This document shows positions 53,698 through 61,403 of a stretch of DNA of 64,000 bases, piece after piece; positions within the stretch are counted from its first letter, which is position 1; each line of letters begins with the position of its first letter. The stretch is from the NCBI GenBank assembly GCA_017411605.1, contig JAFQPR010000009.1, forward strand, positions 13,814 to 77,813. The letters run 5' to 3'. The notes under the pieces are model-generated. The model searched no databases and was not told where the DNA came from. It was given only the letters and a program-made list of their open reading frames with translations. Both the position numbers and the translations under genes were made by a program. The DNA is from Clostridia bacterium. Lineage in GTDB: Bacteria; Bacillota; Clostridia; Oscillospirales; CAG-272.

Positions 53698-53752
53698 TAA
53701 TCAAAAAGTAAACTAAAGTTATAATTTAAACAATATTTATCTAAAAATAGTG

Positions 53753-53786
53753 AGTGCTCGGTTGAATCAAACCGAGCACTTTTTCT
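53753..53786. terminator. Terminator hairpin between convergent genes
   Basis: AGTGCTCGGTT / AACCGAGCACT followed by TTTTT. Confidence 0.65.
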
Positions 53787-53788
53787 AT

Positions 53789-54604
53789 TTATTTCTTGTG
53801 TAACTTTTTGTATTCGTTGGGTGATAGTCCTGTGTGTGCTTTGAAAACGGATAAAAAAGATGAAAGTGAACGAAATCCCGAATCAAAGCAAGCATCTATA
53901 ACTCGTGCGCCGTGGCTAAGTAAAACTTTCGAGTATTCTACTTTTATACTGTTAAGACGTGAAACGTAGCTTTCGCCTACGTGCTTCTTGAAAATATTGC
54001 TGAAATAAGACGTATTATATCCCGCAATTTTTGCCATATCTTCAAGACTGGGGTTTTCAAAGAAATGTGTATTGAGATAGGCTATCGCGCGCTGTATTCC
54101 CGCATCTTGCGCTGATATTGTTTTTTTATTTGCCGATTCGTTGTCTGCAAGGATCAGACTTAAGAAGCTTTCGCAAAGCTCAACCGAGCATCCCCCGTTC
54201 TCCTTTCTGCATTCCTTAAAGAGAATATCTCCAATAGCGGATGCATCAAGAATTTGCTCTTCGGAAAGTGTGATCGGTTTGGTTTTATCTAAAGAGAAAA
54301 TCTTTGATATCAATTTTGGGGAGATAACCGACGTATCAAAATTTAAGCAGTATGCTTTAAGAGGAGAATGCAATGCGTACGTATGAAAATCTATAGGAGA
54401 AAGTATGTAGGCGCTTCCTCTTTTTATTTCATACTGCTGACCGTTTATAATATGTGTTGCTTCGCCATCAAGCACCAATTCGAGCTCATAGTATTTATGA
54501 GCGTGAAGAGGACATATTTTGTTTGTATATCCGCATCCGATATAAATTGGGATTACGCTATTAGCAGGATTTATCTTGAATTGCCTGGTAATTTCATTTT
54601 TCAT
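53789..54604 (-). CDS. AraC-family transcriptional regulator
   Basis: Cupin-like N-domain (HAHKYYELELVLDGE..GSAYILSP) and C-terminal double HTH (MAKIAGYNTSYFSNIFK..VIDACFDSGFRSLSSF). Confidence 0.9.
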   Translation of the reverse strand: MKNEITRQFKINPANSVIPIYIGCGYTNKICPLHAHKYYELELVLDGEATHIINGQQYEIKRGSAYILSPIDFHTYALHSPLKAYCLNFDTSVISPKLISKIFSLDKTKPITLSEEQILDASAIGDILFKECRKENGGCSVELCESFLSLILADNESANKKTISAQDAGIQRAIAYLNTHFFENPSLEDMAKIAGYNTSYFSNIFKKHVGESYVSRLNSIKVEYSKVLLSHGARVIDACFDSGFRSLSSFLSVFKAHTGLSPNEYKKLHKK

Positions 54605-54747
54605 AAAAGGTTTCTTTCTCTTTTAACTTTTTGGCTTTTTCTCTGCTTTGACAAAATATACTGTATGTTAATTTTATCATAACGAATATAAAATGTCAAT
54701 ATTTTTGAAAAATCCAAAAAAAGTGCGTGTTATTATATACAAACTAG

Positions 54748-54777
54748 TTGCCGAAATATGGTTATTTATTTTAGAAT
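54748..54777 (+). promoter_or_regulatory. Candidate promoter of the giant GH20 gene
   Basis: TTGCCG (54748-54753), 18-nt spacer, TAGAAT (54772-54777); weak call. Confidence 0.3.
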
Positions 54778-54825
54778 AATTACAAAAACAGTTAATAAAC
54801 TGTGTTTTATGAAAGGAGATTAATT

Positions 54826-57800
54826 ATGAAAGTGAAAACAAAAACCAAAAGATGCGTTAAAATGATAATTATCGCACTCTTGGCATCGGTGGTGATACTT
54901 TGCACAGGAATTGCTATGTATGCGACGGATACGGCTTCCGGAGTTTTATCTACGATAGCGACTGTGAGTCCAACGTTATCTGCCGATGGTAAATCAATTA
55001 TACTCCCGGGCGTTCCGGATGGATATACGGTATCCGTAAACGGCACGTCAAATGAAAGTGTTATCGATATTGACGGTAACGTATACACCCCGCTTGTGGA
55101 TACTACCGTTAAAGTTAATTACAAGGTAACAAAAATCGAAGACGGTATGAGTGCTGTCGATAATTATCAGGAGGCTTCCATTGTGATAAACGGAAAATAT
55201 ACAGCCGAAGAATTCGATAACGCCGAACCTGCAGTACTTCCTAAGCTTCAGGAATGGAAGGGCGGTCAGGGTACCGTTAAGGTATCCGAGTCATCACGCA
55301 TAGTGGTTTCTCACGCCGCGTTTATGCCTCAGGCTGAGCTTATAAACGAATATTTTGCCGACATTTTAGGATCTCCGCTCGAAATCGTTACGGATGAAGC
55401 ATCCGCTGGAGATATCATTATTGGATATGCCGACGCCAAGGAACTTGGTAAGGAAGGTTATACTGTTGAACTTTCCGACCGCATAATTATTGAAGCTTAC
55501 AGTGAAACAGGAGCGCTTTACGGCGGAACTACCGTAGCGCAAATGCTTACTCTTTATGAAGGCTATGAGTTACCGCAGGGATATATCAGGGATTATCCTG
55601 CGTATGAAGTCAGATCTTCAATGATAGACGTTGCAAGACATTATTTACCTTTGGAACAGCTTGTTGACACGAGTAAATATCTTGCATATTTCAAGGTAAA
55701 TCAGATTCACGTACATATTAACGACAACGGGGGACAGCAGAATTATGCTTTCAGAGTGGAGAGCAAAAGATATCCCGAGATAAATTCTTTACTTGGCGAT
55801 AATATTTATTCGCAGGAGGATTACCGCGCTTACCAGACCGAGCTTCTTAAGTACGGAGTTAAGGTGATAACCGAGATAGATTCGCCTGCTCACGCAGGAT
55901 TTGCAGGACTTTACGACTCTTCTCTTGTAATATCCAGCGACAAAGGAAAACTTGATCTTACGAATAATTACGACGGTGTTGTCACTTTTATGAAGGGACT
56001 TGTCGACGAGTTTGTTAACGGTTACGATGGCAATCCCTCCGTCATAATTGATGAAATAGATACTATTCATCTCGGTATGGACGAATATTATTATAATCAC
56101 GATCAGTACAAGGTATATATGAAAGAGATGTGTGATTATACAAAGTCTCTTGGTAAGTGTGTTCAGGTATGGAGCGCTTTGAAAACTGCCGATTTTTCCG
56201 AGGAGCTTCCTATAACCCCTGAAAATACGATAGTAAACTACTGGGGTGATGCGGATCTGAAAGCGTACGCAAACTTAGACTTTCCTGCGGTATCAAACTA
56301 TCCATTAAAGCTGTACGTGGTGCCGGGTGTAACTAATGCGTTTGGAGATTGGATTGATATTCCAACTATTTACGACAGTTATGAGGCAAATATCGTTTCG
56401 TCATCCTTGACCTTTGCTGAATCATCACCGCTTTTACTCGGTGTTGAGGGCGCTATTTGGCACGATAATAACGCCGGACATTCAAAGGAAGGTGTTTTTG
56501 CCCGTGTAAGAGACCAGATGCTTCTTGTGTCCGAAAAAGCATGGCACGGTAAGGCGGATGGCGTAACGGGTGAACAGTTTGAAAAAAGACTTCGCGCTAT
56601 TCAGGACCTCGTGCCTATCGTTAATCCTCAGAGCTTCGTTCCCTCGAACGAGGACGGAGTTGTTGCGGATTATGATTTTGATGAAGTAGAAAACGGAAAG
56701 ATTAAGGATACCGCTCAGGGACTTGACGCAACGCTTAACGAAATTTCCGTAAGCAATTCCAAATTAACACTTGATGGTACGGGATACCTCTCTCTTCCTA
56801 TAGATCAGATAGGCTTCCCGTATACAGTGAGCTTCGGTCTTACCTATTCTTCTACTACCTCGGGAATTCTTTTTGCGGGCGGTGACTCTACGTTCTGGCT
56901 CAACAAGAACGCTGACGGAAAAATTACGTTTGCAAGAGAGCTTCATACTTTCGGCTTTGATTTTGTATTCGTAAAGAATTTGCACTACGATATAATGCTT
57001 GTATGTGACAGAGAAACGATTAGCCTTTACGTAGACGGAGTTTATATTGAAGATGCGCACGTTATTTCCGCGGAAACGAAAAAACAAAATCTCAGCAGTA
57101 TCAAGTTTAGTGAATCCGTATTGTCAACGTCAAGGATAGGCGAGGGAATTGTAGGTACCTTAGATAGCTTGAAGATACTTGGAAGTGCAGACAAAGTTGC
57201 GCTCAGCGGTATCGATAATATGAAATACGGAAACGTGGCGCTCGGTAAAGAGACCAGTGCTTCCGGTACCGAAGTAAATTATAAATGGTTCCCCGAAAAT
57301 GCTGTAGACGGTATAACGGAAGGCTCGGATTTTAAGGTGTCCTTGAACAGAGTTGATAACGCTTGGCTCACCATAGATCTTGGTGAAGTATACTCTATAG
57401 ATAAGATCAAGATCTATTTCCTTCAGTCACCTGTGGCATATAAATTCCTTATTTCTGTAGATGGAATAAACTATACCGAGGTGTATAATCAGCCTTCTGC
57501 TAACGCAGCAAAAAAATCCACAGACACCATCGAACTTGGAACAAACGTTGCAGCGAGATACGTTAAGTATCAGCAGGTTGAAATGTTTTCCGCAACTCTC
57601 AGCAACGGCAACGTTGCAAAATACAGCGGAAGCTTTGCTGAAATTGAGGTTTACGGAAGCGAAATCGCGATAAATAAAAACCTCGCGCTTGGAAAAGAAG
57701 TTGTAGAATGCACTTATAATGAAAATGGTACGACCGGTGTACCTCAGAATCTTACAGACGGTAATAACGAGGCATCCTGGAGCAACAGAGTATGCTTCGA

Positions 57801-60800
57801 GAAGCTGGACGAAGTGTATTTCACGGTTGACCTTGAAAGCGAGTGTCTTATCAGCGGTGTAAATCTTTATTGGTATCAAAGACCTAACAAGTATCGGATA
57901 TACGTATCATCAGACAGGAGCAATTGGACTCTCGTTTATGAGGATCTGAAGGATAACGGTGGGGTCAAGTCAACTGACTGTGTGTCTATCCCCAACACCG
58001 TTATCGGTAGATACGTAAGGGTTATGTTAACCGAGTGCTTCGAAGCCTCTAACGGAAACTTGTATTGCGGAAGTATTGCCGAAGTGGAGGTTATAGGAAC
58101 AGGAACCGACATTGGCGCTCTTGATACGATAGATAGATATCTTAAGACACTTGACGGAGATGCAAAAACTCATCTTTATAACAGAGTAGCCCTCGTTAAG
58201 AGAATAATAAGCAAAGGAAATACCGATATTTCAGCGGTTGCAATCAAGCTGCTTTATGAAGAATATGAGAGAATGCTCAATTCTTCTTACACTTTAGATA
58301 CTTCAAAGGGAAATATCTATAATGCGCTTCTTGATATTAAACTAAGAAAGCACGCGAGCAGCGATTCTGCATATGCAGCGTACATGGAGGCGTATAAGCT
58401 TACTCTCAGTGCATACATCAATTCAAAGACGGATACATCGGTTAGAACGAACAGACTTTCCATGCTGAATAGTGCAACTTTGAAAATTGCGAAGCCCGAC
58501 AGTATCGAGACGGACTTTACGTTCGCTGATTTAAACCTTCTCAAGGACGGAAATGTCAGCACATATTATGCTACCACCGAAACCACGCAGGCGGTAGGTA
58601 ATTACTTCACAATCAATTATAATAATCCCATTACTTTTGCATCCATAAGATTAGCCACCAAGGATATTAATTCATCTCTTTCAACAGCTAAGATTGAATA
58701 TTCTCTTGACGGAACGACGTTCACAACGCTTAAGGAGATAAATGGTGCCGGAAACATAAGAGATTATCGCTTTGGTGTAAATCGCAAGAATATGTGCGAG
58801 CTTGTTGTCAAGAATCCGATAGACAACGTAGTAGCAATACGTATAACCGTAACGGCAAGCTCCACTAAGAAATTACAACTTGCTGAAATCTTAGTGAATG
58901 AAAACATAGACCTTGACGTTCTTATTCCCGAAGCAAGCGGCTATCTGCTCGAGAATTATACTACTGCCAGCAGCTTCCCGTTCTTCCAGTATTATAAATC
59001 CGAAGCTGTTTCTCGTGCGTTTGTCGACAATTTAGCTACGTATATAAGATACCTTGTTCCAAAGGCAGACGTTGAGGCAGTAAATGCCAAAATATCCGAG
59101 CTTAAGGCAATTGACACAACGCTTTATACCGATTCATCTGTAGCCGTACTTAATGCGGCAATAGCATCAGCTGAAAGCTTTGTTTCAAGTATCAACGATA
59201 ACGTATCAATATATGCGTCGGATGATGTGATTGAAGAGCTTTGTAACGCGAAGAATGCTCTTGTCAGAAATACTGCTATTAATACCGCAGAGCTCGAGAG
59301 CGCTATTGCCTCGGCAAGCGTAAATTCGTGGGAATACACCTATTATTCCTATAAATTCCTTAGCGATACGGTATATTACGCTAAATCGCTTCTTAACAAT
59401 GCAAACGCAACACAGGAAATAATCAATGAAGCTTGCATAAGGGTTAATTATGCGATATCAAAACTCGAAACTCGCGGAACGCGTGTTAATGTGGCTCTTA
59501 ATAAGAATCTCATCATATCAGGTCGCGAATCGGCAAGCTCGCTCGGTCCTGAGCTTGCGGTAGACGGCGATCTGACAACGAGATTCTCACCGAATCGCGA
59601 AGATGGTGCATACTTTATCATAGATCTCGGCGAGATACTGATGATCGACACTATTGAGGCAGTATGGAATCATAATCCGAGAAAATATAATATCCAGATT
59701 TCCGTCGACAACAAAAAATACGTTACTGTTTATGAATCGTATGACTCTCTTGTATTCGGCAAAGCAGTAACAGATACTATTAATTTCGAAGAAGCTGTAC
59801 AGGCGAGATATGTAAAATTTGATCTTGTATCAAGATTTCTCGGTAGTAGCGATCAGCATACGCTTTACAGTGGTTCACCTAATGAAGTTATGATATACTC
59901 AGCTGATATGACACCCTCAAAGAGCGAGCTTCAGTATCTCGTAGATCTCTATGCAAACGGAATCACTCAGAGCTTTGCTCCGGAGTGCAAGGCGAAGATA
60001 GAGGCGGCACTTGCCGAAGCGGAAGCACTTCTCGCAAACGATAGCGCAACTGCAGAGGAAATTGAGGCGCTCGTTAACAGCCTTACTCACACTACCGATG
60101 CTTTAAACTTTAAGTTTGCAAACAATAGTGTACATACACATACTTGTCCATGTGGTGTTTCGGTAAGTGAAGAGCATATCTTTGATGCGGGAACGGTAGC
60201 TATGAAACCTTCAGCGTTTGAAGAAGGCGAGATGGTTTATACTTGTTCTGTCTGCGGAGGCAATAAGACCGAGGCAATACCTACTGTTGACCTTTATCTT
60301 TCTTCGATGAAGTTGAATCTTGCCGAAAGTATAAATGTTGTATATATTGCCGAAGTTAATGAAAGTCTTGCTGAACCTTATCTTATAGTTAAGCTTCTCG
60401 GTAATGAATATAAGCTTACAAAGTATACAGTTCGTGCAGACGGCAGATATGAATTCGTTTTCAAAGGGGCAACACCTTCGAATATGACCGATGATATGAG
60501 CGCTACTCTTTATGCCAAGAGAGGGGATGAAACGGTAAGCTCCGATGAAAGAAGCTTTACCATCAGAGAATACTGCGCGGCTGTTCTTAAGGCGTACAGC
60601 GCTGACGTAAAGCTCAGAACTCTCATCAGCGATATTCTTGTTTACGGTGCGGCACTTCAGAATTACGTAGGTCACGAAACCGATAATCTCGCTACCTCAT
60701 CCGTACCGCGTCTTACGTCGAGCGAGTACGATGAAACAATTACGAGTAAGCTTCTTATTTCAGGTACTGCAAACGGATATAAGTGGATAAGCGCGGGACT

Positions 60801-61188
60801 TGTATGCACAGGACGTATGAGTGTTGATTTTAAGTTCGAATGCGCAAATCCTGATGATACTGTTATCAGATTTACTGTATGCGGCAGAGAGATGACCTAC
60901 AAGGTAAGCGATCTCGATTGCGACAGTGACGGACGTTACAGCATTCGTTTGAACGGAATTATGGCATATGAATTTGATGAAACGATAACTGCTGAATTCG
61001 TAACAGACGGAGAAGCTGTCGGTGAGAAGTTAAACTTCTCGGTTAACTCGTATATCGTTTATATGAATGAGCTTTATGCTTCCTCTACGAATGAAACCGA
61101 ATTAAAGCTTGTGGAGCTCGTTCGTGCTATTTCGTGCTACGGAAACAGTGCTAAGGCTTACTACGAGCAAATCAAAGGAGAAAAATGA
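54826..61188 (+). CDS. Giant (about 2120 aa) secreted or anchored GH20 beta-N-acetylhexosaminidase-like protein with LamG, four F5/8-type-C (CBM32-like), FIVAR-like helical domains and a C-terminal tandem module of unknown function
   Basis: Signal/anchor MKVKTKTKRCVKMIIIALLASVVILC. GH20b plus catalytic blocks (MIDVARHY, HVHINDNGG, HLGMDEY). LamG-like region (LTLDGTGYLSL..ILFAGG). Repeated NxALGK..AVDG..W..IDLG discoidin-type units. AAAGGAGA RBS before the ATG at 54826. Confidence 0.85.
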   Translation: MKVKTKTKRCVKMIIIALLASVVILCTGIAMYATDTASGVLSTIATVSPTLSADGKSIILPGVPDGYTVSVNGTSNESVIDIDGNVYTPLVDTTVKVNYKVTKIEDGMSAVDNYQEASIVINGKYTAEEFDNAEPAVLPKLQEWKGGQGTVKVSESSRIVVSHAAFMPQAELINEYFADILGSPLEIVTDEASAGDIIIGYADAKELGKEGYTVELSDRIIIEAYSETGALYGGTTVAQMLTLYEGYELPQGYIRDYPAYEVRSSMIDVARHYLPLEQLVDTSKYLAYFKVNQIHVHINDNGGQQNYAFRVESKRYPEINSLLGDNIYSQEDYRAYQTELLKYGVKVITEIDSPAHAGFAGLYDSSLVISSDKGKLDLTNNYDGVVTFMKGLVDEFVNGYDGNPSVIIDEIDTIHLGMDEYYYNHDQYKVYMKEMCDYTKSLGKCVQVWSALKTADFSEELPITPENTIVNYWGDADLKAYANLDFPAVSNYPLKLYVVPGVTNAFGDWIDIPTIYDSYEANIVSSSLTFAESSPLLLGVEGAIWHDNNAGHSKEGVFARVRDQMLLVSEKAWHGKADGVTGEQFEKRLRAIQDLVPIVNPQSFVPSNEDGVVADYDFDEVENGKIKDTAQGLDATLNEISVSNSKLTLDGTGYLSLPIDQIGFPYTVSFGLTYSSTTSGILFAGGDSTFWLNKNADGKITFARELHTFGFDFVFVKNLHYDIMLVCDRETISLYVDGVYIEDAHVISAETKKQNLSSIKFSESVLSTSRIGEGIVGTLDSLKILGSADKVALSGIDNMKYGNVALGKETSASGTEVNYKWFPENAVDGITEGSDFKVSLNRVDNAWLTIDLGEVYSIDKIKIYFLQSPVAYKFLISVDGINYTEVYNQPSANAAKKSTDTIELGTNVAARYVKYQQVEMFSATLSNGNVAKYSGSFAEIEVYGSEIAINKNLALGKEVVECTYNENGTTGVPQNLTDGNNEASWSNRVCFEKLDEVYFTVDLESECLISGVNLYWYQRPNKYRIYVSSDRSNWTLVYEDLKDNGGVKSTDCVSIPNTVIGRYVRVMLTECFEASNGNLYCGSIAEVEVIGTGTDIGALDTIDRYLKTLDGDAKTHLYNRVALVKRIISKGNTDISAVAIKLLYEEYERMLNSSYTLDTSKGNIYNALLDIKLRKHASSDSAYAAYMEAYKLTLSAYINSKTDTSVRTNRLSMLNSATLKIAKPDSIETDFTFADLNLLKDGNVSTYYATTETTQAVGNYFTINYNNPITFASIRLATKDINSSLSTAKIEYSLDGTTFTTLKEINGAGNIRDYRFGVNRKNMCELVVKNPIDNVVAIRITVTASSTKKLQLAEILVNENIDLDVLIPEASGYLLENYTTASSFPFFQYYKSEAVSRAFVDNLATYIRYLVPKADVEAVNAKISELKAIDTTLYTDSSVAVLNAAIASAESFVSSINDNVSIYASDDVIEELCNAKNALVRNTAINTAELESAIASASVNSWEYTYYSYKFLSDTVYYAKSLLNNANATQEIINEACIRVNYAISKLETRGTRVNVALNKNLIISGRESASSLGPELAVDGDLTTRFSPNREDGAYFIIDLGEILMIDTIEAVWNHNPRKYNIQISVDNKKYVTVYESYDSLVFGKAVTDTINFEEAVQARYVKFDLVSRFLGSSDQHTLYSGSPNEVMIYSADMTPSKSELQYLVDLYANGITQSFAPECKAKIEAALAEAEALLANDSATAEEIEALVNSLTHTTDALNFKFANNSVHTHTCPCGVSVSEEHIFDAGTVAMKPSAFEEGEMVYTCSVCGGNKTEAIPTVDLYLSSMKLNLAESINVVYIAEVNESLAEPYLIVKLLGNEYKLTKYTVRADGRYEFVFKGATPSNMTDDMSATLYAKRGDETVSSDERSFTIREYCAAVLKAYSADVKLRTLISDILVYGAALQNYVGHETDNLATSSVPRLTSSEYDETITSKLLISGTANGYKWISAGLVCTGRMSVDFKFECANPDDTVIRFTVCGREMTYKVSDLDCDSDGRYSIRLNGIMAYEFDETITAEFVTDGEAVGEKLNFSVNSYIVYMNELYASSTNETELKLVELVRAISCYGNSAKAYYEQIKGEK

Positions 61189-61322
61189 TGGATAAATATG
61201 AAGCGCCGATTGCGATAATGATAAACATTTCATCATCGGATATAATAACCACAAGTCCTATCGGAGACTCCGATGATTACGAGCCCGGAATCGAGCTTCC
61301 GGAGCTTGAATTTCCGAGATAA
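61185..61322 (+). CDS. 45-aa acidic mini-protein, family shared with 23921-24055 (function unknown)
   Basis: Not in the ORF track. The ATG overlaps the TGA of the giant gene (ATGA), and an AAAGGAG RBS lies inside the giant gene's end. MMDKYEAPIAIMINISSSDIITTSPIGDSDDYEPGIELPELEFPR, followed by a strong terminator. Confidence 0.55.
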   Translation: MMDKYEAPIAIMINISSSDIITTSPIGDSDDYEPGIELPELEFPR

Positions 61323-61348
61323 TAATTTGTAATTTGTTGAAATACAAA

Positions 61349-61400
61349 GGGGTTAACTCAAGACATTTAAAGCTTGAGTTAACCCCGATTTTTGTTTTTT
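61349..61400. terminator. Strong bidirectional rho-independent terminator
   Basis: 14-bp perfect stem GGGGTTAACTCAAG / CTTGAGTTAACCCC followed by GATTTTTGTTTTTT. Confidence 0.75.
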
Positions 61401-61403
61401 ATA

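What the first reader, a model, noticed from the sequence alone, without database searches (positions are those of the whole stretch)
53789..61322. Locus 2 of the same architecture with GH20/LamG/4x F5-8-type-C cargo
The order is the same as locus 1: AraC (53789-54604, minus strand), a 221-bp control region, the giant gene (54826-61188), the mini-ORF (61185-61322), and a strong terminator.

In this locus the shared tandem module forms the extreme C-terminus of the giant protein, directly abutting the mini-ORF. In locus 1 the module is internal.

The GH20, LamG, multiple discoidin-type (CBM32-like) and FIVAR-like combination is typical of host-glycan or mucin-degrading exoglycosidases of gut Firmicutes. 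This gives a plausible physiological setting for the system.
Basis: partly seen in the sequence, partly recalled or inferred. Interest (0 to 1): 0.65.

Follow-up and report, generated by a model that had tools for sequence, protein, structure and literature searches.

The report
Giant GH20 enzyme with trailer peptide
In an uncultured gut Clostridia genome, a three-gene unit encodes an AraC-type regulator, a 2,120-residue secreted sugar-cleaving enzyme and a tightly coupled 45-residue peptide that looks like the precursor of a processed, exported peptide; this enzyme-plus-peptide pairing recurs about 25 times in the genome and has not been described.

Summary
AraC gene (53789-54604, minus), 221-bp control region, giant gene (54826-61188), mini-ORF (61185-61322, ATGA overlap) and a strong terminator are all present.

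HMMs confirm GH20b plus GH20, with an intact HLGMDE catalytic motif, and four F5/8-type-C domains. LamG and FIVAR matches fall below Pfam's cut-offs.

The last 300 residues form two repeats, each an Ig-like sandwich plus a helical hairpin (AF2 pLDDT 89). They are homologous to the internal module of locus 1 (hhalign 98.5%). The family is large and has no Pfam model (3,073 cluster representatives) and almost always sits at the extreme C-terminus.

The mini-ORF is the interesting part. It has a YxxP leader, an invariant D-I-I-T-T-S site and an acidic core ending GIELPELEF. The genome carries about 30 such genes, essentially all next to giant secreted proteins. It also encodes, elsewhere, one PqqD-type recognition protein coupled to an S24/signal-peptidase-like peptidase, a P-loop kinase-like protein and an NTP_transf_5 enzyme. 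This is the toolkit of the recently described LPP peptides.

Across 201 genomes of the order, all 31 with such peptides have the peptidase. Peptide core type tracks module type, and the same core motif occurs on acidic lipoproteins in equivalent loci elsewhere. Direct peptide-module binding is not shown: the single AF2 fusion test was negative.

The parts
53752..53781 (.). Bidirectional terminator-like hairpin that closes the unit on the AraC side
   Evidence: 12-bp stem with 6 G-C pairs, found on both strands.
53789..54604 (-). AraC/XylS-family regulator, 271 aa: N-terminal cupin ligand-binding domain and C-terminal double HTH
   Evidence: PF12833 at 4.1e-16, PF00165 at 2e-13, PF02311 at 2e-10. 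It is 24% identical to the AraC of locus 1. A 271-aa AraC occupies the same position in orthologue L021.
54605..54825 (.). 221-bp divergent control region. Holds an AraC promoter-like site (54699-54671, minus) and a giant-gene promoter-like site (54748-54777, plus). Holds a conserved block GTGCGTGTTATTAT upstream of the -35 and a conserved CAGT-N6-ACTG repeat before the RBS.
   Evidence: Promoter scan: TTGACA-17-TAAAAT with TG, 11/12 matches, and TTGCCG-18-TAGAAT, 9/12. These blocks are conserved in orthologous loci whose proteins are about 76% identical. Function is inferred.
54826..61188 (+). Giant secreted protein, 2,120 aa (P0001)
   Evidence: Open frame with RBS. N-terminal basic plus hydrophobic signal sequence. 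Orthologues at 98%, 77% and 76% identity. Three short metatranscriptome contigs map to it at 95-99% identity.
55228..56550 (+). GH20b (aa 135-257) and GH20 catalytic domain (aa 260-575). The catalytic motif H-L-G-M-D-E is at aa 415-420 (56068-56085).
   Evidence: PF02838 at 4.9e-21 and PF00728 at 7.5e-24. Best solved relatives are beta-N-acetylhexosaminidases 7ezt/6jqf, E 7e-46 over aa 49-600; lacto-N-biosidases score only 1e-16 to 2e-11. The motif is read from the sequence.
56776..57084 (+). Possible ConA/LamG-like domain (aa about 651-753)
   Evidence: PF13385 Laminin_G_3, E 0.0018, 18.9 bits, below the 27.6 cut-off. Inconclusive.
57199..59901 (+). Four F5/8-type-C (discoidin, CBM32-like) domains at aa 792-944, 949-1091, 1221-1359 and 1553-1692, separated by helical FIVAR-like spacers
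   Evidence: PF00754 at 3.6e-55 and PF22633 at 2.7e-46, four stretches each. The third copy is confirmed separately at 5.6e-8. FIVAR matches are below the cut-off. Boundaries come from the sequence.
60133..60282 (+). Small Cys4 (CxC...CxxC) domain of about 50 aa, aa 1770-1819
   Evidence: No Pfam family. The same segment recurs up to 9 times in other giant Clostridia proteins at 35-53% identity.
60292..61185 (+). C-terminal module (aa 1823-2120): two tandem repeats, each an Ig-like beta-sandwich followed by a helical hairpin ending in ..Y-G-x-[AS]-A-x-x-Y
   Evidence: - AF2 with 13-row alignment: pLDDT 89.3, pTM 0.85.
- Foldseek against PDB finds only generic tandem Ig folds, TM about 0.2.
- No Pfam or PDB sequence match.
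- hhalign against the canonical module, which includes the locus-1 copy: 98.5%.
- 3,073 cluster representatives at E<=1e-3. About 93% of the top 150 end within 15 aa of the C-terminus.
61185..61256 (+). Mini-ORF leader part (aa 1-24, MMDKYEAPIAIMINISSSDIITTS): Y5-x-x-P8 motif, a beta-strand-like stretch, and the invariant D19, T22 and S24
   Evidence: Invariant columns Y, P, D, T, S in 18 paralogues. The same islands are conserved in orthologues. The YxxP motif is the RRE-binding motif of lasso and LPP leaders (PMC13381572).
61257..61322 (+). Mini-ORF core part (aa 25-45, PIGDSDDYEPGIELPELEFPR) and stop codon. It is acidic, with the C-terminal motif E-P-G-I-E-L-P-E-x-x-F-P-R.
   Evidence: The motif is conserved in orthologues as EPG[IV]ELPE..FPRI. 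Related motifs end the mini-ORFs behind other locus-2-type modules.
61344..61401 (+). Intrinsic terminator that closes the operon
   Evidence: dG -24.1 kcal/mol, z -7.43, 0 of 200 shuffles fold as well; followed by a T-run.

Best explanation
Locus 2 is a self-contained three-gene unit between two terminators.

1. A divergent AraC/XylS regulator probably controls the operon. The domains are shown; the control is inferred from adjacency and a conserved intergenic region.

2. The operon's main product is a 2,120-residue exported, multi-modular GH20 beta-N-acetylhexosaminidase. It has four discoidin/CBM32-like sugar-binding domains and suits the removal of terminal HexNAc from host or dietary glycans in the gut. 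Fold and catalytic motif are shown; substrate is inferred.

3. Its last 300 residues are a conserved, unnamed module. The module has two repeats of an Ig-like sandwich plus a helical hairpin and marks a very large family of giant secreted Clostridia proteins.

4. The translationally coupled 45-residue ORF is a leader/core precursor peptide of the LPP (linear polyphosphorylated peptide) kind.
   - It has a YxxP motif for a PqqD-type recognition protein.
   - It has an invariant D-I-I-T-T-S processing or modification site.
   - It has a 21-residue acidic core ending in GIELPELEF.
   - It is most likely bound by the genome's single discrete RRE.
   - It is most likely cut near T22-S24 by the RRE-coupled S24/signal-peptidase-like peptidase.
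   - It may be modified on S24 by the P-loop kinase-like protein and the NTP_transf_5 enzyme, then exported.
   - All of these enzymes are encoded elsewhere in the genome and would serve all of the roughly 30 such peptides in trans.
   - Gene content and co-occurrence are shown; the chemistry is inferred by analogy.

5. Three observations link peptide and enzyme.
   - The peptide gene is coupled one-to-one to a giant-enzyme gene.
   - The core motif co-varies with the module subtype.
   - The same motif sits on membrane-tethered acidic lipoproteins in equivalent loci of other genomes.
   From these I infer that the released core acts outside the cell together with the enzyme's C-terminal module, for example by docking or retaining the enzyme at the cell surface. 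This last step is a hypothesis and is not shown.
For: Anatomy and domains.

Conservation of the trio in orthologous loci:
- The AraC, giant and 46-aa peptide trio, with its ATGA overlap, is kept in loci about 76% identical, although the flanking genes differ.
- The peptide is only about 50% identical, but three islands are conserved: KYE.P, SDIIT[TA]S and EPG[IV]ELPE..FPR.

Family size:
- 35 copies in this genome, and 384 database homologues of the canonical type with a nearly invariant core.

Trans machinery in the same genome:
- PqqD at 1.3e-13, with a 1-nt gap to an S24 peptidase (PF00717 at 8.5e-6; TIGR02228 at 3e-7; Ser30/His68/Asp85 read by eye).
- A P-loop protein at C26.
- NTP_transf_5 at 5e-36 inside a wall-polysaccharide locus.

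Clustered form in other genomes:
- Kinase-like, RRE, peptidase, sometimes an ABC exporter, and NTP_transf_5 lie together.
- They lie next to a leader-bearing mini-ORF and module-bearing giant proteins.

Co-occurrence in 201 genomes of the order:
- Mini-ORF in 31 genomes, all 31 with the peptidase (Fisher p 2e-18) and 30 with the kinase-like gene.
- Peptidase and kinase-like gene together in 62 of 66 and 69 genomes.
- Module in 18 genomes, of which 16 have the peptidase.

Mini-ORFs behind other modules:
- Other-cargo giants with a locus-2-type module have a mini-ORF directly downstream in about 70% of the loci inspected.
- Those peptide cores end in G-x-[IV]-x-[LT]-P-[ED]-x-x-[FL].
- All canonical modules of this genome pair with DG[IN]WD-type cores.

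Lipoproteins carrying the same motifs downstream: L025, L026, G019 (L058) and G136/G082.

The LPP reference system is PMC13381572.
Against: - No experiment or expression data connects the peptide, the enzymes and the module. The only RNA evidence is three short contigs on the giant gene.
- The leader differs from the published LPP motif. The Thr-to-Ser spacing is shorter by one residue and there is no H-Q.
- The kinase-like protein matches HprK-type models only faintly, E 0.03-0.16.
- In this genome the enzymes are not clustered with any precursor.
- An AF2 model of a natural read-through fusion of a canonical module with its mini-ORF left the peptide disordered (pLDDT 38-65), so it gives no support for binding of the unmodified peptide to the module.
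- Co-variation of core and module could reflect common descent of a duplicated cassette rather than co-evolution.
- The co-occurrence statistics are not phylogenetically independent.
- About 30% of locus-2-type module genes inspected have no mini-ORF downstream.
- One orthologue (L051) lacks the AraC gene.
Confidence: 0.55

Rival explanations
1. The mini-ORF is an independent RiPP, such as a signalling, biofilm or antagonistic peptide. It merely shares transcription with giant-enzyme genes. Its product has no physical or functional relation to the enzyme or its C-terminal module. The pairing arose because module, mini-ORF and terminator were duplicated together as the 3' end of an expanding gene family.
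For: - The canonical loci share near-identical 3' ends, and contigs break there, as expected for recent duplication or gene conversion.
- Leader-bearing peptides in other genomes follow proteins without the module.
- Some variants are Cys-rich and sit next to radical SAM enzymes. The leader therefore serves several RiPP classes.
- The AF2 fusion shows no docking.
- The roles of LPPs are unknown.
Against: - Pairing with a giant secreted protein holds in distant genomes with unrelated cargo and only 25-31% module identity.
- The trio is kept while the flanks change.
- ATGA coupling is conserved.
- The core motif tracks the module type and reappears on lipoproteins in the same loci.
- It is hard to see why one genome would keep about 30 intact copies of a product that is nearly identical.
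Confidence: 0.3
2. The peptide is not a RiPP precursor. It is a cytoplasmic escort or chaperone made one-to-one with the giant protein. It would bind the nascent C-terminal module, or target it to an export or anchoring route, through beta-strand addition by its ELEVI-type strand.
For: - Translational coupling suggests stoichiometric synthesis.
- The peptide has no signal peptide.
- The module is the part of the giant protein made last.
Against: - The AF2 fusion shows no docking of the leader strand.
- In some giants, including locus 1, the module is internal.
- Co-occurrence with the RRE-peptidase-kinase cassette is perfect, and the genes are physically clustered in other genomes.
- The best-conserved part of the canonical family is the core, not the strand.
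Confidence: 0.08
3. The mini-ORF is not a gene. It would be a conserved 3' UTR, repeat or terminator-associated sequence that happens to be open.
For: It is short, has no Pfam or NCBIfam family, and no RNA or protein evidence covers it.
Against: - Conservation is at the amino-acid level, with in-frame indels and an RBS.
- There are 384 protein homologues with variable leader positions but fixed Y, P, D, T and S residues.
- The frame is open in all three phases relative to the upstream gene.
- The ORF is distinct from the terminator hairpin downstream.
Confidence: 0.03

Closest known systems
LPP (linear polyphosphorylated peptide) RiPP system of Bacilli: LppA precursor, LppB discrete RRE, LppS archaeal-type signal-peptidase-I-like leader peptidase, LppK HprK-like kinase, LppN NTP transferase, LppD exporter (Popov et al. 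2026, PMC13381572)
   Same: - The leader has a YxxP RRE motif followed by a conserved Thr..Ser site.
- A discrete PqqD-type RRE is translationally coupled to an S24/S26-type peptidase.
- A P-loop kinase-like gene and NTP_transf_5 belong to the same conserved cassette in this order.
- Both are associated with wall or capsule polysaccharide loci.
- The biological role is unknown in both.
   Different: - Here the host is uncultured gut Clostridia.
- The leader lacks the H-Q, and its Thr-Ser spacing is shorter by one residue.
- The core is only about 20 residues.
- About 30 precursor genes are dispersed through one genome, each joined to a giant secreted enzyme gene instead of to the enzymes.
- Module-bearing giant proteins and motif-bearing lipoproteins belong to the neighbourhood.
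- Phosphorylation is not shown.
Paeninodin-type lasso peptide clusters of Bacillota
   Same: YxxP/WxxP leader recognised by a PqqD-like B1 protein; HprK-like kinase and nucleotidyltransferase as tailoring enzymes.
   Different: No lasso B2 protease (PF13471) is found in this genome. The peptidase is a serine S24/S26 type. The core has no lasso-ring pattern.
Multi-modular secreted GH20 and related exo-glycosidases of gut and mucosal Firmicutes and bifidobacteria, which combine GH20 or GH84 with CBM32 and FIVAR modules (my own knowledge of these families; solved GH20 relatives 7ezt/6jqf)
   Same: Signal peptide; GH20b plus GH20 with the D-E catalytic pair; several discoidin/CBM32-type domains; helical spacers; gut origin.
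   Different: No LPXTG, SLH or other known wall anchor was found. Instead there is an unnamed C-terminal tandem Ig-plus-hairpin module and a coupled peptide gene.
Non-covalent surface-docking pairs of Gram-positive bacteria, such as cohesin-dockerin (a functional analogy only, for the novel reading)
   Same: A conserved C-terminal module sits on many different secreted enzymes. A short acidic motif is displayed on separate, sometimes membrane-tethered, proteins encoded nearby.
   Different: No sequence or fold relation. Binding is not demonstrated. One partner would be a RiPP-type processed peptide.

Membership tests
Glycoside hydrolase family 20 | GH20 catalytic (beta/alpha)8 domain and the N-terminal GH20b domain | tested here: met
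   PF00728 at 7.5e-24 (85 bits, cut-off 22.3) and PF02838 at 4.9e-21. PDB GH20 hexosaminidases 7ezt/6jqf match at E 7e-46.
Glycoside hydrolase family 20 | Adjacent Asp-Glu catalytic pair in the H-x-G-x-D-E motif | tested here: met
   HLGMDE at aa 415-420, read from the translation. Its alignment to the catalytic residues of a solved enzyme was not inspected residue by residue.
Glycoside hydrolase family 20 | Beta-N-acetylhexosaminidase (or lacto-N-biosidase) activity | not testable with these tools
   Needs an enzyme assay. Hexosaminidases score far better than lacto-N-biosidases.
F5/8 type C (discoidin, CBM32-like) domain | Match to the domain model above the curated cut-off, in four copies | tested here: met
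   PF00754 at 185.9 bits (cut-off 28.2), 4 stretches; PF22633 at 156.6 bits, 4 stretches.
LamG / ConA-like lectin domain | Match to a LamG-type model above the cut-off | tested here: inconclusive
   PF13385 at 18.9 bits against a cut-off of 27.6, E 0.0018, aa about 651-753. No structure was predicted for this region.
FIVAR domain | Match to PF07554 above the cut-off | tested here: inconclusive
   Three partial matches of 17-26 bits against a cut-off of 29.2.
AraC/XylS transcription regulators | C-terminal double HTH plus N-terminal cupin-type ligand-binding domain | tested here: met
   PF12833 at 59.5 bits, PF00165 at 50.6 bits, PF02311 at 41 bits.
AraC/XylS transcription regulators | Regulates the adjacent divergent operon | not testable with these tools
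   There is only adjacency (8 of 17 paralogous loci; orthologues) and a conserved intergenic region. One orthologue lacks the AraC gene.
LPP-type RiPP system (PMC13381572) | Precursor with N-terminal YxxPxVLxHQxIxFETxxS leader motif | tested here: inconclusive
   YxxP, a following hydrophobic strand and an invariant D-[IV]-I-T-[TA]-S are present. H-Q is absent and the Thr-Ser spacing is one residue shorter. No HMM of LppA was available.
LPP-type RiPP system (PMC13381572) | Discrete RRE (PqqD-like) protein | tested here: met
   A 92-aa ORF at C80:14903-15181, PF05402 at 51.5 bits (cut-off 23.4). It is the only match over the cut-off in the genome.
LPP-type RiPP system (PMC13381572) | Archaeal-type signal-peptidase-I-like leader peptidase next to the RRE | tested here: met
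   A 158-aa ORF one nucleotide after the RRE gene. PF00717 at 25.9 bits (cut-off 23.3); TIGR02228 sigpep_I_arch at E 3e-7, below its cut-off. Ser30, His68 and Asp85 were read by eye. It was not compared directly with LppS.
LPP-type RiPP system (PMC13381572) | HprK-like kinase | tested here: inconclusive
   A conserved 238-aa P-loop protein (SGVGKTTH) lies beside the RRE-peptidase pair in most genomes of the order. Only faint matches to HprK_rel_B (0.031) and ScmC (0.16) were found, and none to Pfam or PDB.
LPP-type RiPP system (PMC13381572) | NTP_transf_5-type nucleotidyltransferase | tested here: met
   C70:17350-18507, PF14907 at 124.9 bits. The same family lies in the clustered loci L016-L019.
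LPP-type RiPP system (PMC13381572) | Precursor and enzymes in one gene cluster | tested here: not met
   In this genome the RRE-peptidase pair (C80), the kinase-like gene (C26), the NTP transferase (C70) and about 30 precursors are dispersed. They are clustered in other genomes of the order.
LPP-type RiPP system (PMC13381572) | Leader cleavage and Ser polyphosphorylation of the core | not testable with these tools
   Needs heterologous expression and mass spectrometry.
Lasso peptides | B2 transglutaminase-like leader protease (and lasso cyclase) | tested here: not met
   PF13471 gives no match in the genome, which is 82% complete. The cyclase was not searched.

The most novel reading that the evidence does not exclude
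The short acidic C-terminal motif of the trailer peptides is an extracellular 'hook'. In locus 2 it is GIELPELEF; in the canonical loci it is DGIWDFD. The unnamed C-terminal tandem Ig-plus-hairpin module of the giant enzymes would be its receptor.

Each giant exoenzyme gene would then bring its own docking ligand. The ligand would be matured by an LPP-type RRE, peptidase, kinase and nucleotidyltransferase pathway and perhaps joined to a wall polymer. In other genomes the same hook is instead presented on an acidic lipoprotein.

This would be a new non-covalent surface-display system of monoderm gut bacteria, and the first biological role for LPP-type RiPPs.
Probability: 0.22. Interest if true: 0.85.

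Novelty: new variant of a known kind. Interest (0 to 1): 0.64.

Why it matters
The GH20 enzyme by itself is an ordinary, if very large, gut glycosidase. The interest lies in the coupling.

- One small genome spends roughly 6% of its DNA on about 25 giant secreted enzymes.
- Each of them carries a conserved uncharacterised C-terminal module and is followed by a leader-bearing peptide gene.
- The processing enzymes for those peptides are of a RiPP type first described in 2026, whose function is unknown.

If the peptide and the module work together, this would explain how these bacteria hold or organise their glycan-degrading enzymes. It would also give LPP-type peptides a role.

Even without that, two things are useful for annotating gut metagenomes. 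One is the module family, with more than 3,000 sequence clusters and no Pfam model. The other is the trailer-peptide family, with hundreds of members and no family model.

Tried and rejected
- **Frameshift or read-through joining the mini-ORF to the giant protein.** Rejected. The gaps between the genes run from 8 to 76 nt and occur in all three phases. The in-phase group has two stop codons between the genes.
- **Peptide docking onto the module.** I modelled a natural TGA read-through fusion of a canonical module, linker and mini-ORF with an unpaired alignment. The module was confident and the peptide disordered. The result is negative or inconclusive. No second complex could be run.
- **Fold search of both module models against PDB.** Only generic tandem Ig, Fab or Fc folds matched, with TM 0.15-0.25.
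- **Sequence searches of the module and the kinase-like protein against PDB.** Nothing was found.
- **Pfam and NCBIfam on the mini-ORFs and the module.** Nothing was found.
- **Lasso-peptide reading.** No B2 protease is present.
- **The search for related loci with the module alignment.** The single-protein scan gave only three loci.
- **Hook-bearing lipoproteins in this genome.** A regex scan found the motif only in mini-ORFs.
- **RNA evidence for co-transcription.** One metatranscriptome gave three 200-250-nt contigs on the giant gene only. Nothing covered the AraC gene or the mini-ORF.
- **Iterative HMM search from the locus-2 module at strict thresholds.** It stayed within three paralogues. 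Homology to the canonical module needed profile-profile comparison.

Full report
**1. Observation**

The ORF map matches the finding exactly.
- A 271-aa ORF lies on the minus strand at 53789-54604.
- A 221-bp gap follows it.
- A long plus-strand ORF has its RBS-preceded ATG at 54826 and its stop at 61186-61188, giving 2,120 aa.
- A 45-aa ORF lies at 61185-61322. Its ATG overlaps the TGA of the giant gene, in the sequence AAAGGAGAAAAATGATGG.
- Downstream is a 14-bp G+C-rich stem plus T-run, dG -24.1 kcal/mol, z = -7.4.
- A bidirectional hairpin at 53752-53781 closes the unit on the other side.

The flanking genes are housekeeping genes: an AsnC regulator, an aminotransferase and a histidine phosphatase on one side, and isocitrate dehydrogenase and aconitase on the other.

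**2. Domains of the giant protein**

Pfam results:
- GH20b at aa 135-257, 4.9e-21.
- GH20 at aa 260-575, 7.5e-24.
- Four F5/8-type-C domains, 3.6e-55.

The GH20 signature HLGMDE is present at aa 415-420. The best solved relatives are beta-N-acetylhexosaminidases 7ezt/6jqf (E 7e-46 over aa 49-600). Lacto-N-biosidases score much lower.

Laminin_G_3 scores 18.9 bits against a cut-off of 27.6. FIVAR scores 17-26 bits against 29.2. A 50-aa CxC...CxxC segment (aa 1770-1819) precedes the C-terminal module. This segment is a repeated element of many other giant Clostridia proteins.

**3. The shared module**

Direct BLASTP between the two giants in the window is weak (E 7e-4).

Within the genome, about 17 giant proteins share a module of about 290 aa, mostly at the extreme C-terminus. 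It is internal in locus 1 and in three other proteins. Locus 2 carries a divergent subtype shared with two paralogues, C28 at 40% identity and C17 at 28%.

Profile-profile comparison of the two subtypes gives 98.5% probability and E 1.6e-15 over 263 columns.

AF2 on a 13-row alignment gives pLDDT 89.3 and pTM 0.85. The model shows two repeats, each a 7-8-strand beta-sandwich followed by a helical hairpin. Foldseek finds only generic tandem Ig folds. There is no Pfam, NCBIfam or PDB sequence match.

Against 1.84 billion cluster representatives, the module finds 3,073 proteins at E<=1e-3 and 1,143 at E<=1e-10. In about 93% of the top 150, the match ends within 15 residues of the C-terminus.

**4. 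The mini-ORF family**

A motif scan and then an HMM find 35 copies in this 2.8-Mb, 104-contig genome.

Every copy not truncated by a contig end adjoins a signal-peptide-bearing protein of 700-2,800 aa. The mini-ORF is usually 8-76 nt downstream of the giant gene, and once it lies upstream. The intergenic phase varies, which rules out a recoding fusion.

The invariant residues are Y, P, D, T and S, in the pattern Y-x-x-P ... D-[IV]-I-T-[TA]-S.

The canonical type, Y..PELEVI.L...DIITTSPGTETTPKEDNDGIWDFDLG, has 384 database homologues. Their leader positions vary, but the core is almost invariant.

The locus-2 peptide is a divergent member. In orthologous loci whose giant protein is about 76% identical, the peptide is only about 50% identical. 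Three islands are kept: KYE.P, SDIIT[TA]S and EPG[IV]ELPE..FPR. The ATGA overlap and the RBS are also kept.

**5. What processes the peptides**

The YxxP leader motif is the ligand of PqqD-type RiPP recognition elements. A 2026 paper describes LPP peptides of Bacilli (PMC13381572). Their properties are:
- The leader, YxxPxVLxHQxIxFET|xxS, is bound by a discrete RRE.
- The core is phosphorylated on Ser3 by an HprK-like kinase.
- An NTP transferase and an exporter are also part of the cluster.

This genome has matching genes, each on a different contig:
- One PqqD gene over the Pfam cut-off, at C80:14903-15181, 1.3e-13.
- One nucleotide downstream, a 158-aa S24/S26-type peptidase (PF00717 at 8.5e-6; TIGR02228 at 3e-7).
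- A conserved P-loop protein at C26:6294-7010.
- An NTP_transf_5 enzyme at C70:17350-18507, 5e-36, inside a wall-polysaccharide locus.

No lasso B2 protease is present.

In other genomes of the same order these genes form one cassette: kinase-like, RRE, peptidase, sometimes an ABC exporter, and NTP_transf_5. The cassette lies next to a leader-bearing mini-ORF and giant secreted proteins, several of which carry the module.

**6. Co-occurrence**

Counts in an even sample of 201 genomes of the order:

| Feature | Genomes with it | Overlap |
|---|---|---|
| Peptidase | 66 | 62 also have the kinase-like gene (p 1e-38); the two genes are usually within 1 kb |
| Kinase-like gene | 69 | 62 also have the peptidase |
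| Mini-ORF HMM | 31 | all 31 have the peptidase (p 2e-18); 30 have the kinase-like gene |
| Locus-2-type module | 18 | 16 have the peptidase; 11 have a detectable mini-ORF |

These p-values ignore phylogeny and are upper bounds on significance. The all-or-none pattern and the physical clustering are nevertheless clear.

**7. Link between peptide and module**

Proteins with unrelated cargo that share the locus-2-type module at only 25-31% identity also have a mini-ORF directly downstream. Three metagenome loci (L024-L026) and ten further genome loci show this. Six loci have none.

The cores of these peptides end in a recurrent motif, G-x-[IV]-x-[LT]-P-[ED]-x-x-[FL]:

| Locus | Motif at the end of the core |
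|---|---|
| Locus 2 | PGIELPELEF |
| L024 | EPIELPDL |
| L025 | PIETPDDDF |
| L026 | PGIDLPIDNF |
| C28 | GIIETPEDEF |
| G120 | GEVILPEDEF |
| G049 | GDRVDLPDDLD |
| G078 | PDELPDDEW |
| G026 | VQMPDDDF |

In contrast, all canonical modules of this genome pair with DG[IN]WD-type cores.

Acidic lipoproteins encoded just downstream in four independent loci carry the same motifs:
- L025 has three copies of I[IV]LP[ED]DEF.
- L026 ends in EGIELPMDFFD.
- G019 ends in SSDVELPFVPFD and sits between the mini-ORF and the kinase-RRE-peptidase genes.
- G136/G082 carry GDFxSLFG and D[SG]DW[NK]PWF, against the mini-ORF core GDGDWKDFGDLFG.

A motif displayed on a lipoprotein acts outside the cytoplasm. This suggests that the peptide core does too, and that the module is a candidate partner.

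I tested the idea once, using a natural TGA read-through fusion of a canonical module and its mini-ORF. The module folded confidently, but the peptide stayed disordered at pLDDT 38-65. Direct binding is therefore unsupported so far. Common descent of a duplicated module-plus-peptide cassette remains an alternative explanation for the co-variation.

**8. The AraC link**

- The regulator has the canonical cupin plus double-HTH architecture.
- Eight of the 17 giant genes with complete 5' ends in this genome have a divergent AraC gene directly upstream. The genome holds 55 AraC-like genes in 2.8 Mb.
- The trio of AraC, giant gene and mini-ORF is kept in the orthologous locus L021, although the flanking genes differ. 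In L022 the AraC gene is split into two ORFs. In L021 the GH20 gene is split.
- A 71%-identical orthologue, L051, sits behind sugar-metabolism genes instead and has no AraC gene.
- The intergenic region shows conserved promoter-like blocks for both genes and a conserved block upstream of the -35 of the giant gene.
- Regulation is therefore plausible but inferred. The only RNA evidence is three short metatranscriptome contigs on the giant gene.

**9. Source**

Near-identical DNA is found in pig, goat and other gut metagenomes. Related contigs are titled as MAGs of Eubacteriales or Clostridia, some from yak gut.

**10. Verdict**

Locus 2 is real and correctly delineated. Its enzyme is a new member of a known kind, a giant GH20 exo-glycosidase with CBM32-like domains.

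The architecture it exemplifies is a new variant of a very recently described RiPP system. It consists of an AraC regulator, a giant exoenzyme with an unnamed C-terminal module, and an LPP-like trailer peptide processed in trans. Its function is unknown. The most interesting reading still open is that peptide and module form a docking pair.

Earlier notes of this scan on locus 1 and on the mini-ORF family reached the same 'leader-type peptide' reading. I re-derived it independently. New here are the trans-encoded machinery, the co-occurrence counts, the module structure, the correlation between core type and module type, and the motif-bearing lipoproteins.

Noticed in passing
window 60133-60282 (aa 1770-1819 of the giant protein): A 50-aa CxC...CxxC segment (HTHTCPCG...CSVCGG) has no Pfam family. 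It recurs up to nine times per protein in other giant Clostridia surface proteins at 35-53% identity. It is probably a small zinc-knuckle-like extracellular repeat.
   Followed up: partly
L025:10571-11059; L026:10423-10812; L058 (G019:C9) 413-1051 in the orientation of the module gene; L020:9821-10285; L019:10931-11359: Acidic, low-complexity lipoproteins are encoded just after module-bearing giants and mini-ORFs. They carry the same short motif as the local mini-ORF core, for example I[IV]LP[ED]DEF three times, or a C-terminal GIELPMDFFD or DVELPFVPFD.
   Followed up: partly
L055 (G190:C35) 136-260 and L060 (G147:C57), both oriented with the module gene: Some trailer peptides behind module-bearing giants are Cys-rich (..DIICTSGCGNLEENG..C..C..) and are followed by a radical SAM/SPASM enzyme. 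The same leader type therefore seems to serve a second RiPP class.
   Followed up: no
own genome C26:3415-8549: The kinase-like P-loop gene overlaps the end of a 960-aa leucine-rich-repeat-like secreted protein. It is followed by a Wzz/CpsD-like chain-length regulator. The NTP_transf_5 gene (C70:17350-18507) lies in a locus with TagD-like, LicD-like, flippase and glycosyltransferase genes.
   Followed up: no
own genome C85:19610-24004: This is the one case where the mini-ORF precedes its giant secreted protein (1,413 aa) by 18 nt instead of following it.
   Followed up: no
L021:2520-8869 and L022:1925-2769: In one orthologous locus the GH20 giant is split into a 497-aa and a 1,622-aa gene. In another, the AraC gene is split into 102-aa and 172-aa ORFs. 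These may be frameshifts, decay or assembly errors. The mini-ORF is intact in both.
   Followed up: no
window 54790-54803: A conserved inverted repeat CAGT-N6-ACTG lies in the 5' untranslated region just before the RBS of the giant gene. It is kept in all four orthologous sequences.
   Followed up: no
own genome, ends of contigs C2, C12, C19, C39, C44, C46, C72, C83: Many contigs of the assembly break at or within about 300 nt of a mini-ORF. The near-identical 3' cassettes (module end plus mini-ORF) fragment the assembly, so the true copy number may be higher than counted.
   Followed up: no
own genome C84:63713-64402: A 470-aa ORF has a weak PqqD-like match (E 6e-4) and similarity to the radical SAM/SPASM enzyme of L018. 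It may be a second, fused-RRE RiPP enzyme in the genome.
   Followed up: no
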